A DNA stretch of 52,947 bases from an uncultured Burkholderiaceae bacterium. GTDB lineage: Bacteria > Pseudomonadota > Alphaproteobacteria > Acetobacterales > Acetobacteraceae. The stretch is from contig CAZZVB010000002.1 in assembly GCA_964657445.1 (NCBI GenBank), positions 5,179 to 58,125 of the forward strand, given 5' to 3'. The stretch's first letter is position 1; every line of letters starts with the position of its first letter. This document shows positions 4,155-20,522 of the stretch, one piece after another. The translations under genes and the position numbers were made by a program. The notes beneath the pieces are model-generated. The model was not told the DNA's origin. It searched no databases and saw nothing but the letters and a program-made list of their open reading frames with translations.

Positions 4155-4877
4155 ATGACGGTGGAAATGTCTGTAGTCTCAGTAGGCGACATAAAGGGAC
4201 TGCTCTTAGCGTTGAAAGACCGGGATTTTGAGCCGGGTTTGGACATCTACAAGGACCTGCTACCGGGCTTGAACGAAGTTGCCCTGAAGTTTGGGCCGGA
4301 GATCGAAGGCAATATATTCTATCCACAAGGCAGCGGAGCCGTTGTTTCATCGCTACCGGATCCTGCTTTGCGTCCGAAACGGCGCAACTTCGCTGCCTAC
4401 GTGATGACTGGCTCGTCACTCCTGGAGATCGGTTTCAATGCTGGCCACAGTGCACTGCTTGCACTTTCATGCAACTCTACTCTTAGCTATCTCGGCCTAG
4501 ACTTGGGTCACCATCCTTATACCCGGCCTTGCTTTGAGTATTTGAGAAAATATTTTGGGCGGCGTGTCGAGTTGCTCATTGGCGACTCGCGCATCACCGT
4601 CCCCGCGCTTCGTCACGCGCCAAGCACTCAATTTGATCTGTTTCACATAGATGGCAGCCACGACTTTGAAACCGCTTATTCTGATTTGTGCAACGTCTAT
4701 GATTTTTGCCAGGATGGCGATGTGATCCTTTTCGATGATACGAACGTGTCTCACTTCCTGTTGGACGAACTCTGTGACTTCTTCGCTCTCAAGGGCTTGG
4801 TGACGCGTATTCACTGCTCGCAGCTTTGGACCGGCGACCACAATGTAGCTCTGCGGGTCAATAAGCCCCATCGATGA
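4155..4877 (+). CDS. Class I SAM-dependent methyltransferase (Methyltransf_24-like)
   Basis: LLEIGFNAGHS motif I, IGDS, FDLFHIDGSH, ILFDD; start uncertain (4155 or 4167). Confidence 0.8.
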   Translation: MTVEMSVVSVGDIKGLLLALKDRDFEPGLDIYKDLLPGLNEVALKFGPEIEGNIFYPQGSGAVVSSLPDPALRPKRRNFAAYVMTGSSLLEIGFNAGHSALLALSCNSTLSYLGLDLGHHPYTRPCFEYLRKYFGRRVELLIGDSRITVPALRHAPSTQFDLFHIDGSHDFETAYSDLCNVYDFCQDGDVILFDDTNVSHFLLDELCDFFALKGLVTRIHCSQLWTGDHNVALRVNKPHR

Positions 4878-4898
4878 GCCGCCCGGCATCAGCCTTGC

Positions 4899-5972
4899 AT
4901 GGGCGCGTGCATGATCATCGCCTCGCCTTCACGCGCCCAAGCTGATCCGCGCGGAACGCCTTTACTCGCCGTCCGCGGACTCACGAAACACTTCCCCCTC
5001 ACCGGCGGCCTGCTGGGTCGCAGCCGTGGTTCCGTGCGCGCCGTCGATGACGTCTCGTTCGCGGTGCAGCCCGGCGAGACGCTGGGCATCGTCGGCGAGT
5101 CCGGTTGCGGCAAGTCCACCACCTCCCGCCTGATCATGTCGCTGCTGCCCCCCACCTCGGGGGAGGTCATCTTCGACGGCTTGCCCACCGGCCCCGGTGC
5201 CGAGAGCGTCGGCGGCATCAGCACCAAGGAATATCGCCGCCAGGTGCAGATGGTGTTCCAGGATAGCTACTCCTCGCTCAATCCCCGCCTGACCATCGGC
5301 GAAAGCATCGCCTTCGCCCCGCAGGTGCACGGCGCCAGCGGCCGCGACGCATCCCGCAGGGCGGCGGACCTGCTGAGCGCGGTCGGGCTCGACCCGGCGC
5401 AGTTCTCCCGCCGCTTCCCGCATGAATTGTCGGGTGGCCAGCGCCAGCGGGTGAACATCGCCCGCGCGCTGGCGCTGCAGCCGCGGCTGCTGATCCTGGA
5501 CGAGCCGGTGTCGGCGTTGGACAAGTCGGTCGAAGCCCAGGTGCTGAACCTGCTGCTGGACTTGAAAGGCCAGTTCGGTCTGACTTACCTGTTCATCAGC
5601 CACGACCTGAACGTGGTGCAGTTCGTGGCCGACCGTGTCCTGGTGATGTATCTCGGCCGGGTGGTGGAGATCGGCCCGGTCGATGCGATCTATGGCCACG
5701 CCCAGCATCCCTACACCGTGGCGCTGCTGGATAGCCGGCCGTCGATGGACCCCGGCAACCGCCGCAGCGATCCACCGCTGACCGGCGACCCGCCCAACCC
5801 GGTGAACCCGCCTTCGGGCTGCCGCTTCCGCACCCGTTGCGCCTTCGCGGAGCCGGTCTGCGCCCAAACGGTGCCGCCGCTGGCGCCAACCGCCGCCGAT
5901 CGGGGGCACGCAGTCGCCTGCCTGGCCGTGCAGCCGGGCAGCGGCCACAGCCGCGCGAGCCTTGCCGCATGA
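4899..5972 (+). CDS. Oligopeptide/dipeptide ABC transporter ATP-binding protein (OppF/DppF-like)
   Basis: GESGCGKST Walker A, LSGGQRQR, LDEP, C-terminal PPSGCRFRTRC; start 4899 or 4911. Confidence 0.93.
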   Translation: MGACMIIASPSRAQADPRGTPLLAVRGLTKHFPLTGGLLGRSRGSVRAVDDVSFAVQPGETLGIVGESGCGKSTTSRLIMSLLPPTSGEVIFDGLPTGPGAESVGGISTKEYRRQVQMVFQDSYSSLNPRLTIGESIAFAPQVHGASGRDASRRAADLLSAVGLDPAQFSRRFPHELSGGQRQRVNIARALALQPRLLILDEPVSALDKSVEAQVLNLLLDLKGQFGLTYLFISHDLNVVQFVADRVLVMYLGRVVEIGPVDAIYGHAQHPYTVALLDSRPSMDPGNRRSDPPLTGDPPNPVNPPSGCRFRTRCAFAEPVCAQTVPPLAPTAADRGHAVACLAVQPGSGHSRASLAA

Positions 5973-16306: not shown

Positions 16307-16693
16307 ATGCGAACCCGGGCCCACCCTATCCGAGCTGGCCTTATGGCGTGGCTGTTTGCCGCGTTGGCTGTGCTTGGGCAGATCACGAATGTCGGCGCCG
16401 TGCCGACAGATATGGATGCCGCTGGGCTGCCGGGCTTTGGCGTCATCTGCAGCAGCGACCATCCCGCCTCTCCAGACGAACACCCGGCCCACCATCGTCA
16501 CACCATGGACTGCACCGTCTGCCCGCTTTGTGCGTCGGCTGCAGTGAATGTGGCGCTGCCCGCGCCGGTCGCGTTCGTGCCTGCGCGGCCGCCTGTTATC
16601 GCCGCGTCTCCGGCCTTGCCGCCACCAGCCCGTGCGCCACCTGGCGCAAATTATCGTCCTGGACGCCCCAGGGGACCGCCCAGCCTTACCTGA
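16307..16693 (+). CDS. DUF2946-type (CruR/CutF-like) copper-responsive leader protein
   Basis: N-terminal hydrophobic segment, VICS, HHRH, CTVCPLC, Pro-rich C-terminus with ARAPP and PRGPP; heads a copper operon. Confidence 0.8.
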   Translation: MRTRAHPIRAGLMAWLFAALAVLGQITNVGAVPTDMDAAGLPGFGVICSSDHPASPDEHPAHHRHTMDCTVCPLCASAAVNVALPAPVAFVPARPPVIAASPALPPPARAPPGANYRPGRPRGPPSLT

Positions 16694-16700
16694 TTTCACC

Positions 16701-16749
16701 TGCCTTGCAGCACCGGCACGTCCGGTTTTGGTGTTTTCTAGTAAAGGCC
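16701..16749 (+). promoter_or_regulatory. Stem-loop predicted to sequester the SD of the downstream outer-membrane protein gene
   Basis: GCCTT (16702-16706) pairs with AAGGC (16744-16748), overlapping SD AAAGG (16743-16747); inner CACC/GGTG pairing. Confidence 0.5.
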
Positions 16750-16756
16750 ATCATCC

Positions 16757-17728
16757 ATGTTCAGAACGGCGGCCGCTGCCATAGCGGCGGTATGCACATG
16801 CCTCTCCGCGCCTGCGTTCGCGCACGTCATCGCAGGCAACCGCGTCTTTCCCGTCACGCTCACAGTCGACGACCCCGGCGTGGCCGACGAGGTCTCGTTA
16901 CCCGCCTTTCAATATACTCGCGACGGCATCGACAGTAGCGGCAGAGGACCCACGCACCAGTTCGCGTTCGGGTTCGAGTACGACAAGACGATTACCAGCA
17001 ACACGGCGCTGATCGTCAACGACGGCTACACGGTCCAGCATCTCAACGGCGCAAAGACACAGGCTGGTTGGCAGAACCTGGTCATCACCGGCAAGTGGCA
17101 GGCCTACACCAACGCGGAGCACGAGTTCGTCGCGTCGCTCGGCATCATTCGCGGGATTGGTGGAACCTCGACAGAGCATATCGGCGGCGACAAGTTCGGA
17201 TCGACAGCGCCGACGGGATATTTCGGGAAAGGGTTTGGTGACATTCCAGTGCCGTTCCTGCGGCCGTTTGCAGTGACGGGCGAGCTCAGCTACGTCGTCG
17301 CCGACGTCAAGCTGAAGCAAATCCAGGTGCAGCCGCCGCTGAACGTCGCTTCAGCCCAGTCAACCGGGATCGCCAGTCAGTTCAACCTGGGGGCAAACAA
17401 TGCTTGGTCGGGCGGATTAACGGTTCAATACAGCCTGCCCTATCTGCAATCGCAGGTGAAGGATGTTGGCCTCGGCGGCTTCTTCGGCAATCTGATCCCG
17501 CTTGTCGAAATGACTTGGACATCGCCCGCGGGCAAGCCGAGCAACCTGGGTACGACATTCACCGCGGCGCCCGGCGTAATCTACCTCGCGCAATGGGGCG
17601 AGATCGGTGTCGAGGCCTTGATCCCGCTCAATCGCACCACCGGCACCACCCTGGGCGCTGTCGCCCTGGTCCATGTTTTCCTCGACGACCTGCTTCCGAA
17701 CACGCTCGGCAAGCCGATCTTCAACTGA
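16757..17728 (+). CDS. Hypothetical outer-membrane beta-barrel protein in the copper operon
   Basis: Signal peptide AFA-H; amphipathic strands (FAFGFEYDK, VITGKWQAY, LTVQYSL, IGVEALIPL); 323 aa, too short for a TonB receptor. Confidence 0.65.
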   Translation: MFRTAAAAIAAVCTCLSAPAFAHVIAGNRVFPVTLTVDDPGVADEVSLPAFQYTRDGIDSSGRGPTHQFAFGFEYDKTITSNTALIVNDGYTVQHLNGAKTQAGWQNLVITGKWQAYTNAEHEFVASLGIIRGIGGTSTEHIGGDKFGSTAPTGYFGKGFGDIPVPFLRPFAVTGELSYVVADVKLKQIQVQPPLNVASAQSTGIASQFNLGANNAWSGGLTVQYSLPYLQSQVKDVGLGGFFGNLIPLVEMTWTSPAGKPSNLGTTFTAAPGVIYLAQWGEIGVEALIPLNRTTGTTLGAVALVHVFLDDLLPNTLGKPIFN

Positions 17729-17739
17729 AAGACCGCACC

Positions 17740-18237
17740 ATGTTCACTCGATCCATTGTCCGCCTCACCGGAACCTTGACGGCCGTCATCGGCCTGGCGG
17801 GAGGCGCGGCCGCCCAGCAACCCGCCCCTATCGAGGCCACCAACGCCTGGAGCCGCGCCACGACACCAGGCATCGCGACAGGCAGCATTTACCTGACGCT
17901 GACCAGCCCGACGGGCGACAAGCTGGTCGGCATCACCAGCCCTGCGGCGGCCCATGCCGGCGTTCATGAGATGCAGATGGACGGCAACGTGATGAAGATG
18001 CGGGCCGTAGAAGGCGGCTTGGACTTGCCCCCAGGCAAGCCGGTCACGCTGAGCCCCGGCGGCTACCACATCATGCTCGAAGGCCTGAAAGCGCCGCTCA
18101 AGCAGGGTGCGACCGTCCCGGTTCACCTTACCTTTGACAAAGCGTCGCCCGTGGACATCGAAGCAAAGGTCCAGCCGATCGGATCGTCGGGGCCGAAGCC
18201 CGTGGCGCCGGCAATGCCCGGCATGAAGATGAATTAG
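17740..18237 (+). CDS. Copper chaperone PCu(A)C
   Basis: AWSRAT, HEMQMDGNVMKMR...LSPGGYHIML motif; Met-rich tail MPGMKMN. Confidence 0.92.
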   Translation: MFTRSIVRLTGTLTAVIGLAGGAAAQQPAPIEATNAWSRATTPGIATGSIYLTLTSPTGDKLVGITSPAAAHAGVHEMQMDGNVMKMRAVEGGLDLPPGKPVTLSPGGYHIMLEGLKAPLKQGATVPVHLTFDKASPVDIEAKVQPIGSSGPKPVAPAMPGMKMN

Positions 18238-18241
18238 GTCC

Positions 18242-18601
18242 ATGCGCCCTATTCTCGTCTTCGCCGTGGTCTCCGGACTCGCTCTGACTGCCGGCAACGC
18301 GTCTGGCCATGCCTTCCTCAAAAGCGCCACACCGGGTGTCGGCAGCACGGTGCAACAGGCTCCGAGCGAGGTGGTGATCACCTTCACGGAGGGCATTGAG
18401 CCGAAATTCACCACCATCTCGGTGCAGGACGGCTCGGGCGCCGACGTCTCGGCCGGGAGCGTCCACTTGGTTGGCGGCGACACGCAACTAGCGGTCGGCC
18501 TAAAGGTGCTGCAGCCAGGCACCTACAAGGTGTTGTGGCACGCAATCGCGGTGGACACGCACAAGACGGAGGGCAGCTTCACCTTCACAGTAACCAAGTA
18601 G
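18242..18601 (+). CDS. copC: Periplasmic copper-binding protein CopC
   Basis: Mature N-terminus HAFLKSATP, FTEGIEP, PGTYKVLWH, VDTHKTEG. Confidence 0.92.
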   Translation: MRPILVFAVVSGLALTAGNASGHAFLKSATPGVGSTVQQAPSEVVITFTEGIEPKFTTISVQDGSGADVSAGSVHLVGGDTQLAVGLKVLQPGTYKVLWHAIAVDTHKTEGSFTFTVTK

Positions 18602-18614
18602 CCCGGTGGGCCTT

Positions 18615-20522
18615 ATGCCGTTCCCGTTCGACATCGACGGCGGGCTCCTGCTCGCCCTCGTGCGTGGTGCGACGGCGGCGGCGCTGCTGTCCCTGTTCGG
18701 CACGCTGTCGTTCGCCGCTTTCGTCATCCCGCGCGCGGCGCGGACCTTCTCAACGGGCGTGGCCATCACGATCGATCGCCGGCTGGCTGTGCTGAGTTGG
18801 GTGAGCCTCGGGCTAGGGGTGCTTAGCGCCCTACTGTGGCTGGTGTTCCAGTCGGCCGATATGGCCGGGTCGATGACGCCACGCCAGGTGTGGGCGGCGT
18901 TGCCGGACGTGACCATGGGGACGTCCTTCGGCCACACCATCCTGCTGCAGCTTGCTGCCCTGGTTGCGACCGCCGTCTCGTTGACGTTCGGCCGCCGCCG
19001 GATTGCCTGGGCAGTCGCGATGGCGGCGATTGCGACGGCTTTGCAAGCCGGCCATAGCCATGCGGCTTCGATGTATGCCGGGCCGAACCTGCTGCTCGCG
19101 TCCGACGTGGTTCACCTCTGGGCGGCCGGCGCTTGGCTTGGCGGGCTGCTGCCTTTGCTGATCGTTGTCCAGGCGGCCTCCCCGGGCGCCGGGGCAACGG
19201 CGGCGCGGTGGTTCTCCCCACTCGGGCAGCTCTGCCTGGTGGCGATGACCGTCACGGCAGCCTTCCAAGGCTGGGTGATGGTGGCGAGCATCCCGGGCCT
19301 GCTCGGCACCGGGTATGGCTGGATGGCACTGGTCAAGCTGGTGCTGTTCGGCGTGCTGTTCGCCTTTGCCTGGGTAAACCGCTACCGGCTGGCCCCCGCC
19401 CTGCTGCGGGATCGCCCTGCCCGAGCGAAGCGGTTGCTGGTGCGCAGCGTGGGCGTTCAAGCCATGTTCGGTCTTGCGATCGTGGCGGCCGCCTCGGTGC
19501 TGAGCAGCCTGCCTCCGGCAATGCACGAACAGGCGGTATGGCCGTTCGCCAGCCGCGTCACCCTGGACACCGTTCAGGAAGACCCGGAGTTCATGGCCGA
19601 ATTGTCCTGGGCGCTGGCGTCGCTCGGCGGGTCGCTGATCCTGCTGGCGGCGGCCGCGGCGCTGCGGCGGGTGTGGACGGGTCTGCGCTGGGGCATGGCG
19701 GCGGTGGCTTGCCTGGTCGCGTGGTTCGCGGTGCCGCACCTCGGCCTGCTGTTCGTGCCCGCATATCCGACCAGCTATTTCCATTCCCCCACCCTTTTCG
19801 CGGCGACCGGCATTGTGCAAGGCGCGGAGCGATTTCCGGACCTCTGCGCGAGCTGTCACGGTGCGGCAGGCCGCGGTGACGGACCTGCCGCGAAAGGCTT
19901 GCCGGTGCCTCCGGCCGATCTCACGGCGGCACATCTCTGGATGCATAGCGACGGCGACTTGTTTTGGTGGCTGACGCACGGGATCGATGCGCCGGAGGGC
20001 GGCCTGGCAATGCCGGGCTTCGCGTCTGCCCTATCGCCGGACGACCGTTGGGACATGATCGACTACATCCGGGCCAACAACGCCGGTCTGGCCTTTCACG
20101 CGACGGGGCAATGGCCGCAGCCGCTGCAAGCGCCGGAATTCCAGGCGGTCTGCAAGGATGGCCGCACCGTCGGGCTTGCCGACCTGCGGGGCGGCTTCGT
20201 GCGGCTTGTATTCGGGCAGGGCATGGCCGCGCCCGGAGTGACCACGATCGTTGCAGGCCCGGCCGCATATCCAGCACCGGGTCTCTGCGTGGTCAGCGGC
20301 GACACCGTGGCACGCGCCTACGCGATCGTGGCGGGCCTATCGCCGGCGGGCATGGACGGTACGGAGTTCCTGATCGATGCGTCCGGCTGGTTGCGCGCCA
20401 TGCAACCGCCGGGTGCCGCGCCGGGCTGGAGCGATCCTGCCGTGCTGATGGCCGCCCTGCGCGATCTTGCAGCGCATCCTCTGGCCGATCGCGCGCCGAT
20501 GAAGATCAATATGCAGATGTAG
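18615..20522 (+). CDS. copD: CopD-family inner-membrane copper transporter fused to cytochrome c and a degenerate thioredoxin-like domain
   Basis: GHSHA, HLWAAGAWLGGL, FS, YGWMALVK (CopD); CASCHG, PPADLT, HSDGDLFWW, MPGF (cytochrome c); TEFLIDASGWLR tail. Confidence 0.85.
   Translation: MPFPFDIDGGLLLALVRGATAAALLSLFGTLSFAAFVIPRAARTFSTGVAITIDRRLAVLSWVSLGLGVLSALLWLVFQSADMAGSMTPRQVWAALPDVTMGTSFGHTILLQLAALVATAVSLTFGRRRIAWAVAMAAIATALQAGHSHAASMYAGPNLLLASDVVHLWAAGAWLGGLLPLLIVVQAASPGAGATAARWFSPLGQLCLVAMTVTAAFQGWVMVASIPGLLGTGYGWMALVKLVLFGVLFAFAWVNRYRLAPALLRDRPARAKRLLVRSVGVQAMFGLAIVAAASVLSSLPPAMHEQAVWPFASRVTLDTVQEDPEFMAELSWALASLGGSLILLAAAAALRRVWTGLRWGMAAVACLVAWFAVPHLGLLFVPAYPTSYFHSPTLFAATGIVQGAERFPDLCASCHGAAGRGDGPAAKGLPVPPADLTAAHLWMHSDGDLFWWLTHGIDAPEGGLAMPGFASALSPDDRWDMIDYIRANNAGLAFHATGQWPQPLQAPEFQAVCKDGRTVGLADLRGGFVRLVFGQGMAAPGVTTIVAGPAAYPAPGLCVVSGDTVARAYAIVAGLSPAGMDGTEFLIDASGWLRAMQPPGAAPGWSDPAVLMAALRDLAAHPLADRAPMKINMQM

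What the first reader, a model, noticed from the sequence alone, without database searches (positions are those of the whole stretch)
16307..20522. Candidate TonB-independent copper-uptake system: stalling leader + unknown barrel + PCu(A)C + CopC + CopD-cytochrome c
Seen: five co-oriented genes with gaps of 4-63 nt. Known: DUF2946 leaders (Bordetella CruR, Rhodobacter CutF) control downstream copper genes post-transcriptionally; for CruR the target is a TonB-dependent receptor. Inference: here a 323-aa plug-less barrel takes that position, giving a full outer membrane > periplasm > inner membrane Cu route. The operon has no efflux ATPase or oxidase, which points to acquisition rather than resistance.
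Basis: partly seen in the sequence, partly recalled or inferred. Interest (0 to 1): 0.8.

Follow-up and report, generated by a model that had tools for sequence, protein, structure and literature searches.

The report
Histidine-plugged outer-membrane copper channel operon
Five genes in a row encode a leader peptide of a copper-sensing family, an unnamed outer-membrane protein predicted to fold into a small plugged pore, and three known types of copper-handling protein, which together likely bring copper into the cell without the usual TonB-powered receptors, although neither transport nor its direction has been tested.

Summary
The five-gene run is real: DUF2946 leader, 323-aa protein with no Pfam family, PCu(A)C, CopC, CopD-cytochrome c. 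The unknown protein folds with high confidence (pLDDT 93.6) as a 12-stranded barrel closest to FapF and COG4313. It is not plug-less: about 22 N-terminal residues, starting with a conserved mature His1, align with those channels' lumen plugs. CopC directly follows 93 of 100 His1 barrels and none of 11 clearly His-less ones (only two lineages). New here: the leader's last three codons pair with the barrel's ribosome-binding site, and the pairing co-varies across 63 loci. Control is therefore likely CutF/SecM-type translational, not the Rho type of CruR. A barrel-CopC complex gets weak model support (0.48; best control 0.00). Acquisition is favoured: Cu(II)-only CopCs, SCO neighbours in 25 of 96 loci, few efflux or oxidase neighbours. 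It is not shown, since DUF2946 leaders switch either way. TonB-free copper pores (PcoB, RopAe), CopCD import and the CopD-cytochrome fusion are already published. I found no paper on this barrel family, but Lawton 2016 could not be read. The scan noted this family before on other DNA. Verdict: new variant of a known kind.

The parts
16307..16693 (+). DUF2946 leader peptide (CruR/CutF family), 128 aa; CxxCxxC at residues 69-75, final RGPP at 122-125, three residues before the stop
   Evidence: Pfam PF11162 E 6e-9; CPLC-to-RGPP spacing 46 against 45 in CruR (PMC9426467)
16670..16681 (+). RGPP codons, predicted ribosome-arrest motif
   Evidence: RxPP three residues before the stop in most leaders found; arrest function inferred from CruR and CutF
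16683..16689 (+). Anti-Shine-Dalgarno element inside the leader's last codons (GCCTTAC)
   Evidence: Pairs with 16741-16748 in the minimum-energy fold; pairing probability 0.80; co-varies with the SD across 63 loci
16712..16726 (+). Small intergenic hairpin followed by a T-run; terminator-like here, but the T-run is not conserved
   Evidence: U-tract after the hairpin in 1 of 59 loci
16741..16748 (+). Shine-Dalgarno region of the barrel gene (GTAAAGGC; AAGG at 16744-16747)
   Evidence: sequence; folds
16757..17728 (+). Unnamed outer-membrane protein, 323 aa: inferred signal peptide 1-22, then a predicted 12-stranded beta-barrel of FapF/COG4313-like fold
   Evidence: AlphaFold2 pLDDT 93.6, pTM 0.87; VIA Z 22.4 to FapF 5o65 and 21.1 to Pput2725 4rl8; no Pfam or NCBIfam family
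16823..16888 (+). Mature N-terminal segment (His1 ... R7-F9-P10 ... D16-D17-P18 ... D22), predicted lumen plug and candidate Cu(II) site
   Evidence: His1 follows an AxA signal-peptide end in homologues; D16, D17, P18, D22 and E23 invariant among the 55 His1 rows of A1; model residues 7 and 14 onward align with the FapF and Pput2725 plugs
17740..18237 (+). PCu(A)C periplasmic copper chaperone with H-x10-M-x22-H-x-M motif (residues 76-112); optional member of the operon
   Evidence: PF04314 E 4e-35; motif; present in 16 of 91 loci
18242..18601 (+). CopC with mature His1 (nt 18308) and D83-x-H85, no Met-rich Cu(I) site
   Evidence: PF04234 E 6e-22; 92 of 92 scored partner CopCs have D/E-x-H and 0 of 92 a Met-rich motif; alignment A2
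18615..20522 (+). CopD fused to a monohaem cytochrome c (CASCH at 411-415) and a degenerate thioredoxin-like tail; alternative GTG start at 18606
   Evidence: PF05425, PF00034, PF13442 and weak PF00578 E 0.09; His149 in 80 of 80 and His167 in 79 of 79 aligned homologues; 9 hydrophobic segments

Best explanation
This operon likely imports copper for the cell's copper enzymes: an unnamed outer-membrane protein, predicted to be a 12-stranded pore plugged by its own histidine-tipped N-terminus, would let copper in without TonB and hand it to the periplasmic carrier CopC, which would pass it to the inner-membrane protein CopD and the chaperone PCu(A)C. Shown: the gene set, its conservation, His1, the Cu(II)-type CopC and the co-varying pairing between the leader's last codons and the barrel's ribosome-binding site. 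Predicted: the fold, the plug and a weak barrel-CopC contact. Inferred: a ribosome stalled at RGPP covers the anti-SD and frees the barrel's SD, so stalling means ON. Copper bound at the leader's CxxC most likely releases the stall, as in CruR, so the operon runs when copper is scarce. His1 most likely sits at the periplasmic mouth and binds Cu(II) through its amine and imidazole with nearby acidic residues or His284. The fused cytochrome c may set the copper's oxidation state; this is the least supported step.
For: Fold; ESM Atlas nearest named cluster is PF13557, score 0.95, family on 33% of members (run on homologue P0149). Linkage: CopC within 900 nt after 93 of 100 His1 barrels, CopD near 82 of 94, leader before 74 of 94. 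CopC follows 1 of 13 other barrels, and that one is cut at a contig start. RNA switch: matched tail-SD duplex -9.30 kcal/mol against -7.22 +/- 0.26 permuted (0 of 5000 as low) and -7.35 for synonymous recoding; two control pairings show no excess. With 11 representatives below 60% identity, 2 of 20000 permutations were as low, and the signal peaks on the last 12 nt before the stop. Direction: no Met-rich CopC in 92. SCO gene downstream on the same strand in 25 of 96 loci, against multicopper oxidase 4, CusA-like 3, P-type ATPase 1 and CopB 1 anywhere in the held DNA, mostly on the other strand (single-protein blast queries, lower bounds). A CopC/CopD pair was shown to import copper in E. coli through two histidines (PMC11923076, passages); two invariant histidines with similar spacing are present here. 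The same CopD-cytochrome fusion follows a copper monooxygenase operon elsewhere in this genome. Barrel-CopC model: median 0.48, best of 3 controls 0.00, runs agree in at least 97% of contacts, partner pLDDT at least 87. This is weak support: scores of 0.60 or under were reached by 18 of 157 solved pairs and by both of the 2 (of 215) mismatches that passed. TonB: no PF00593, PF07715 or TIGR01778 match in G000; the complete genome G862 has barrel-CopC-CopD-SCO and no PF00593 match.
Against: No transport, binding or expression data. The SD-hiding mechanism is the one used by CutF, which copper turns ON. PcoB imports copper into the periplasm as part of a defence system (PMC9210255, abstract), so import does not imply nutrition. 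COG4313 channels are thought to carry hydrophobic molecules, and Pput2725 conducts ions poorly (PMC4493636, passages). The barrel has no Met and few His in its lumen strands. His-less barrels form only two clades, so the His1-CopC contrast rests on two events; 7 of 100 His1 barrels lack a following CopC, one lying between cation-efflux genes (L136). Only 36 of 63 leaders keep a CxxC 30-60 residues before the arrest motif, and 26 of 63 at 44-47. Blocking the ribosome footprint raised SD accessibility by more than 0.2 in only 21 of 63 loci, and from 0.16 to 0.27 in the window. Against the nearest relative, the own SD paired better in 37, worse in 21 and tied in 5. The Nitrobacter plasmid copy follows an RND efflux cluster and has no leader. 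TonB C-terminal domains are present in G000, and the barrel is not clearly enriched in receptor-less genomes (4 of 9 against 34 of 112).
Confidence: 0.6

Rival explanations
1. A copper-induced buffering or defence operon. Copper prolongs stalling, as in CutF, and opens the SD; the barrel with CopC and CopD then draws copper into the periplasm and sequesters it, as proposed for PcoB.
For: The SD-hiding switch and short spacer (median 67 nt) match CutF. PcoB precedent. Some copies lie near an RND efflux cluster, multicopper oxidases or CopB.
Against: CxxC with 45-47 spacing matches CruR rather than CutF's CxxxC. No Met-rich CopC in 92. SCO neighbours far outnumber efflux and oxidase neighbours. 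The same CopD fusion follows a copper monooxygenase.
Confidence: 0.15
2. The barrel carries something other than free copper: a copper-organic complex or hydrophobic ligand, as COG4313 channels are thought to, or another metal such as nickel or cobalt in some lineages.
For: Fold relatives carry hydrophobic molecules or polypeptides. Many leaders have lost the CxxC and keep His runs. Neighbours include a Ni/Co transporter and cation-efflux genes. His-less paralogues show that the fold serves other cargo.
Against: The gene after the barrel is CopC with an intact Cu(II) site in 93 of 100 loci. The plug is acidic and begins with His. No chelator-synthesis genes appeared among 169 neighbours scanned in 27 diverse loci.
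Confidence: 0.13
3. The barrel is a closed, membrane-anchored copper store or docking site: His1 holds copper at the periplasmic face and loads or tethers CopC, while copper enters through general porins.
For: His1 is inferred to face the periplasm. The truncated FapF barrel is closed by its plug, and Pput2725 opens only at high voltage. Weak barrel-CopC model.
Against: A 12-stranded barrel with conserved charged residues along its strands (E52, K55, K91, E229, E264, H284) is more than an anchor needs. Its best fold matches are all channels.
Confidence: 0.1

Closest known systems
CopB/PcoB of cop/pco operons (PF05275; PDB 7PGE)
   Same: Outer-membrane barrel that lets copper in (PMC9210255, abstract), encoded beside copC and copD (gene order recalled).
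   Different: No PF05275 match; fold match only Z 12.0 at rank 19. Here there is no multicopper oxidase in the operon, the CopC is Cu(II)-only, and a leader peptide heads the operon.
COG4313 / Phenol_MetA_deg / SphA channels (PF13557; Pput2725, PDB 4RL8) and FapF (PDB 5O65)
   Same: 12-stranded barrel with an N-terminal segment in the lumen; Z 21.1 and 22.4, the two best matches; nearest named Atlas cluster.
   Different: 9-10% identity; no PF13557 hit in 58 aligned members or 40 distant representatives. His1-tipped, acidic, non-helical plug and a conserved C-terminal tail. Known members carry hydrophobic solutes or amyloid subunits, not metals.
CruR-BfrG/CrtA (Bordetella pertussis)
   Same: DUF2946 leader with CxxC about 45 residues before a C-terminal RxPP, heading an outer-membrane transporter gene.
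   Different: The target there is a 22-stranded TonB-dependent receptor, the spacer is 162 nt and control is by Rho. Here the spacer is 63 nt and a co-varying anti-SD lies in the leader's last codons.
CutF-CutO (Rhodobacter capsulatus)
   Same: DUF2946 leader whose stalling opens a stem-loop hiding the next gene's SD.
   Different: CutF has CxxxC, its stem-loop is described as intergenic, and its target is a detoxifying oxidase induced by copper.
CopC-CopD import systems: E. coli YobA-YebZ-YebY and the CopD-cytochrome fusion of Methylosinus trichosporium OB3b
   Same: Cu(II)-binding CopC plus a CopD with two conserved histidines; about 4% of CopDs carry a cytochrome cbb3 domain and a Sco/thioredoxin-like tail (PMC11923076, passages).
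   Different: In the passages read, the outer-membrane step is left to porins or chalkophore uptake; no dedicated barrel is named.
RopAe (Rhizobium etli)
   Same: Porin-like protein for copper entry, induced when copper is scarce (PMC6011978, abstract and outline).
   Different: Treated there within the Porin_2 family, which none of our barrels matches.

Membership tests
DUF2946 (CruR/CutF) leader peptides | Pfam PF11162 match above cut-off, first gene of the operon | tested here: met
   37.1 bits against a cut-off of 23.7
DUF2946 (CruR/CutF) leader peptides | CxxC about 45 residues before a C-terminal RxPP | tested here: met
   CPLC 72-75, RGPP 122-125, spacing 46; not kept in all homologous leaders (26 of 63)
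CruR-type control | Rho-dependent termination, copper turns the target off | not testable with these tools
   C exceeds G in 58 of 63 leader ends, but this is confounded by proline codons; needs a reporter
CutF-type control | Stem-loop hides the downstream SD and can be opened by a stalled ribosome | tested here: met
   Co-varying leader-tail/SD pairing; opening itself is only modest in the folding model
CutF-type control | Copper induces stalling and turns the target on | not testable with these tools
   no expression data available
COG4313 / PF13557 channels | 12-stranded barrel with an N-terminal segment in the lumen | tested here: met
   12 long strands; alignment to 4rl8 from model residue 14 and to 5o65 from residue 7; model coordinates not inspected
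COG4313 / PF13557 channels | Sequence match to PF13557 | tested here: not met
   0 of 58 members at E up to 1; 0 of 40 distant representatives at E up to 0.01
CopB/PcoB | PF05275 match | tested here: not met
TonB-dependent copper receptors (OprC, CrtA) | 22-stranded barrel with a plug domain, over 700 residues | tested here: not met
   301-residue mature chain with 12 strands; no PF00593 or PF07715 hit; no form of 540-2000 residues found, weak evidence
CopC, Cu(II)-only class | His1 and D-x-H site, no Met-rich Cu(I) site | tested here: met
   below the NCBIfam equivalog cut-off (84.5 against 95)
CopD importers | PF05425 match and two conserved histidines | tested here: met
   His149 and His167; equivalence to YebZ H135/H154 inferred from spacing, not aligned
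Copper import system | Measured copper uptake that depends on the genes | not testable with these tools
   needs mutants and ICP-MS

The most novel reading that the evidence does not exclude
An undescribed family of outer-membrane channels (394 clusters at 50% identity with E up to 1e-30) is the dedicated, TonB-free outer-membrane step of CopC/CopD copper import. A COG4313-type barrel is gated by a plug whose first residue is a copper-binding histidine that hands the ion straight to a docked CopC, His1 to His1. Its synthesis is set by an arrest peptide that carries the anti-SD in its own last three codons.
Probability: 0.4. Interest if true: 0.8.

Novelty: new variant of a known kind. Interest (0 to 1): 0.6.

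Why it matters
A 2026 paper states that few copper-specific outer-membrane transporters are known, that they are TonB-dependent, and that porin diffusion is likely too slow when copper is scarce (PMC12914433, passages). This family is a concrete candidate for an energy-independent route, with named residues to mutate (His1, D16/D17, E23, H284) and a named partner (CopC). It would be the first metal role for the COG4313/FapF fold that I could find. The anti-SD in the leader's tail gives a simple, testable rule for how these DUF2946 leaders act. Homologues occur in cultured Nitrobacter, Methylocystis and Paraburkholderia, groups in which copper supply is thought to limit nitrogen- and methane-cycle enzymes (recalled).

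Tried and rejected
Sequence search of solved structures: nothing with the single protein or the profile. Intrinsic-terminator attenuation: a terminator-like hairpin lies at 16712-16726, but such sites occur at chance level in the region (2 found, 2.8 expected) and the U-tract appears in 1 of 59 loci; rejected. The single-sequence fold of 16660-16780 is no more stable than shuffles (z +0.63); only the comparative test carries weight. No sigma-70-type promoter match. Barrel-CopC fusions: L024 is a frameshift at a run of N, and P0299 is an error-laden read-through that still holds CopC's signal peptide; both rejected. No longer fused form was found at 540-2000 residues, weak evidence. Exclusion between the barrel and TonB receptors: not seen. 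Expression: no RNA holder listed. Literature: eight searches listed no paper on this barrel family. Lawton et al. 2016 on CopC neighbourhoods and the Bradyrhizobium copper-starvation paper were not held and may bear on novelty and direction. The neighbour table (File S1) of PMC9973294 was not identified among the three supplementary files listed, which I did not open. A text search of the supplements of PMC11923076 found none of five terms, but figures are not held. The family tree is the quick tree; the careful search did not finish.
Full report
Observation. The five ORFs, strand and gaps are as stated. Pfam identifies DUF2946, PCu(A)C, CopC and CopD plus cytochrome c, and finds nothing for the 323-aa protein; NCBIfam finds nothing credible either. 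The flanking genes are carbohydrate enzymes. The closest relatives are from Acetobacteraceae genomes, so the host family is inferred to be that. The best DNA holders are moss metagenomes, and one of their contigs spans the operon intact.

The unknown protein. It has a 22-residue signal peptide, inferred from the AxA-His pattern in homologues, so the mature chain starts with His. The family is large: 2912 hits among 7998 scored candidates, and 394 clusters at 50% identity with E up to 1e-30. It is patchy: 12 of 401 genomes of the phylum, 14 of 401 of the class and 38 of 121 of the family. From a 58-row alignment, AlphaFold2 gave pLDDT 93.6 with twelve long strands from residue 23 to 286. The best fold matches are FapF (Z 22.4, rmsd 4.2, 239 aligned, from model residue 7) and the COG4313 channel Pput2725 (Z 21.1, rmsd 3.6, 233 aligned, from residue 14). 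The open KdgM and NanC porins align only from residues 22-23, and PcoB scores 12.0 (Foldseek also ranks FapF first). In both top matches the N-terminal segment plugs the lumen from the periplasmic side (PMC4493636 and PMC5557850, passages). Model residue 7 aligns with FapF 92, in a helix whose N-terminus points to the periplasm, so His1 likely sits at the periplasmic mouth. I could not view coordinates, so this is inference. The ESM Atlas, queried with homologue P0149, also points to PF13557 as the nearest named cluster, yet no member hits that Pfam model. It is a fold relative, not a member. Conserved polar residues are His1, R7, D16, D17, D22, E23, K91, E229, E264, H284 and D288. Among the 150 best representatives, 92 had a scoreable N-terminal motif and 70 of these begin with His; 58 could not be scored.

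Neighbourhood. I scored 113 barrel genes from 113 loci (80 close, 6 plasmid, 27 diverse), after dropping 4 with under 600 nt downstream. CopC follows within 900 nt in 93 of 100 His1 barrels; CopD is near in 82 of 94, the cytochrome fusion in 50 of 91, PCu(A)C in 16 of 91 and a leader in 74 of 94. Of 13 others, one is cut at a contig start and is the only one followed by CopC, and one has a disrupted start. None of the remaining 11 is followed by CopC, though 5 are tandem copies upstream of a His1 barrel. On a tree of 61 of these rows, the His-less forms make only two clades, so the contrast is two events. Annotated plasmids of Nitrobacter, Burkholderia, Paraburkholderia, Robbsia and Methylocystis show the same order, with the barrel as 'hypothetical protein'; the Burkholderia copy lacks CopC. 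All 92 scored partner CopCs have the Cu(II) site and none a Met-rich motif (4 more not scored). SCO genes follow on the same strand in 25 of 96 loci, while oxidase, efflux and CopB genes are rare nearby. Exceptions exist: an RND cluster before the Nitrobacter copy, an oxidase and SCO before the Paraburkholderia copy, and cation-efflux genes around L136.

Leader and switch. The leader has CPLC 46 residues before RGPP, three residues from the stop, close to CruR's 45 (PMC9426467, passages and section 10). In both studied systems a stalled ribosome turns the next gene on, but copper relieves the stall in CruR and induces it in CutF (PMC9973294, passages and section 12; bioRxiv 2025.02.05.636593, passages). 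I tested how the stall is read out in 63 distinct loci that had a leader ending in xPP plus three residues, a 30-120 nt spacer and a recognisable SD. Each leader's last 15 nt pair with their own barrel SD at -9.30 kcal/mol on average, against -7.22 +/- 0.26 when partners are permuted and -7.35 when the tail is synonymously recoded. Tail against coding sequence, and upstream leader against SD, show no excess. The effect holds in 11 representatives below 60% identity (2 of 20000 permutations as low) and is confined to the last codons. It is weaker against nearest relatives: 37 better, 21 worse, 5 tied. The anti-SD lies where a ribosome stalled at RGPP would cover it, although folding with that footprint blocked opens the SD only modestly (mean 0.22 to 0.37). 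This points to translational control. Rho is not excluded. I saw no description of an anti-SD inside the leader's tail in the passages read.

Genome context. G000 (89% complete) has two haem-copper oxidase subunit I genes, one copper ATPase elsewhere and TonB C-terminal domains. It has no match to TonB-dependent receptors, OprC, CopB or multicopper oxidases. It also has a copper monooxygenase operon followed by a second CopC-domain gene and CopD-cytochrome gene. A complete relative, G862, has barrel-CopC-CopD-SCO and no receptor match. Across the family, however, the barrel is not clearly enriched in receptor-less genomes (4 of 9 against 34 of 112).

Complex. ESMFold2 gave barrel plus CopC a median score of 0.48 against 0.00 for the best of three controls. 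Runs agreed in at least 97% of contacts, with partner pLDDT at least 87. The tool rates this weak: 18 of 157 solved pairs passed at 0.60 or under, as did both of the 2 of 215 mismatches that passed.

Mechanism and verdict. Most likely (0.6): when copper is scarce, stalling on the leader exposes the SD. The plugged barrel admits copper, His1 passes it to CopC, and CopC feeds CopD, PCu(A)C and SCO-type chaperones for oxidase assembly. Gene content, conservation and RNA co-variation are shown; fold and contact are predicted; transport, copper binding and direction are inferred. Rivals are copper-induced sequestration (0.15), a different cargo (0.13) and a non-conducting dock (0.10).

Against what is known. 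Copper entry through non-TonB barrels (PcoB, abstract; RopAe, abstract), CopC/CopD import and the CopD-cytochrome fusion (PMC11923076, passages), and DUF2946 control of copper operons are published. The barrel family and the tail anti-SD were not found in eight searches, with Lawton 2016 unread. Passages of PMC6189053, PMC6769254, PMC8689200, PMC12914433 and bioRxiv 072470 did not mention the family. Earlier AI notes of this scan describe the same family on other genomes; they are not independent evidence. My reading of the barrel was recorded before I opened them, and the summaries shown did not mention the anti-SD. Novelty: new variant of a known kind. Interest 0.6.

Noticed in passing
L156:5644-11470 (G000 contig C128, + strand): A complete copper membrane monooxygenase operon in C-A-B order (AmoC/PmoC, AMO, Monooxygenase_B), followed by a CopC-domain fusion whose N-terminal half looks PmoD-like (label recalled) and a CopD-cytochrome c gene. 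It is the only such match in 121 genomes of the family. The contig's tetranucleotide profile is atypical (rank 77 of 81 similar-sized contigs), but all four runs tested that hold the window also cover it, at similar depth in X1. Flanked by OmpW, LysR, GST, a short-chain dehydrogenase and an AMP-binding enzyme; substrate unknown. Worth its own study.
   Followed up: partly
L137:5965-6843 (G000 contig C47): His-less paralogue of the barrel (mature start Tyr), with no leader or CopC, near an ABC-type solute-binding protein gene. It groups with Tyr-, Pro- and Asp-starting forms from other genomes.
   Followed up: partly
L034, L039, L042, L053, L056, about 4400-5400: Tandem His-less copy of the barrel directly upstream of the leader and His1 barrel; a second, independent loss of His1.
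   Followed up: partly
G000 whole genome; also G769, G775, G785, G804, G825, G839, G862, G872: No TonB-dependent receptor match in 9 of 121 genomes of the family, including single-contig genomes G775 and G862. TonB C-terminal domains are present in the four of these that were tested.
   Followed up: partly
Leaders of L010, L027, L050, L070, L078 and others: Many leaders in this family keep the RxPP tail but have one cysteine or none, with histidine runs instead; they may sense differently or sense another metal.
   Followed up: no
L157:1-1623 and L155:4581-7399: A third CopC-CopD pair in G000 (contig C235); the matching pair in G862 is followed by a TonB C-terminal-domain gene.
   Followed up: no
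L158:2586-4943 (G000 contig C75): Three tandem genes with TonB C-terminal-like domains next to protease genes of HslVU type (label recalled).
   Followed up: no
L152 (G774:C1, about 3008700-3009600): The barrel gene of the only same-genus genome is split by a frameshift, either an assembly error or a pseudogene (same break in L036).
   Followed up: no
window:24853-25290 (-): ORF that looks like a DtxR/MntR-type metal-dependent regulator, about 4 kb downstream (label recalled, not scanned).
   Followed up: no
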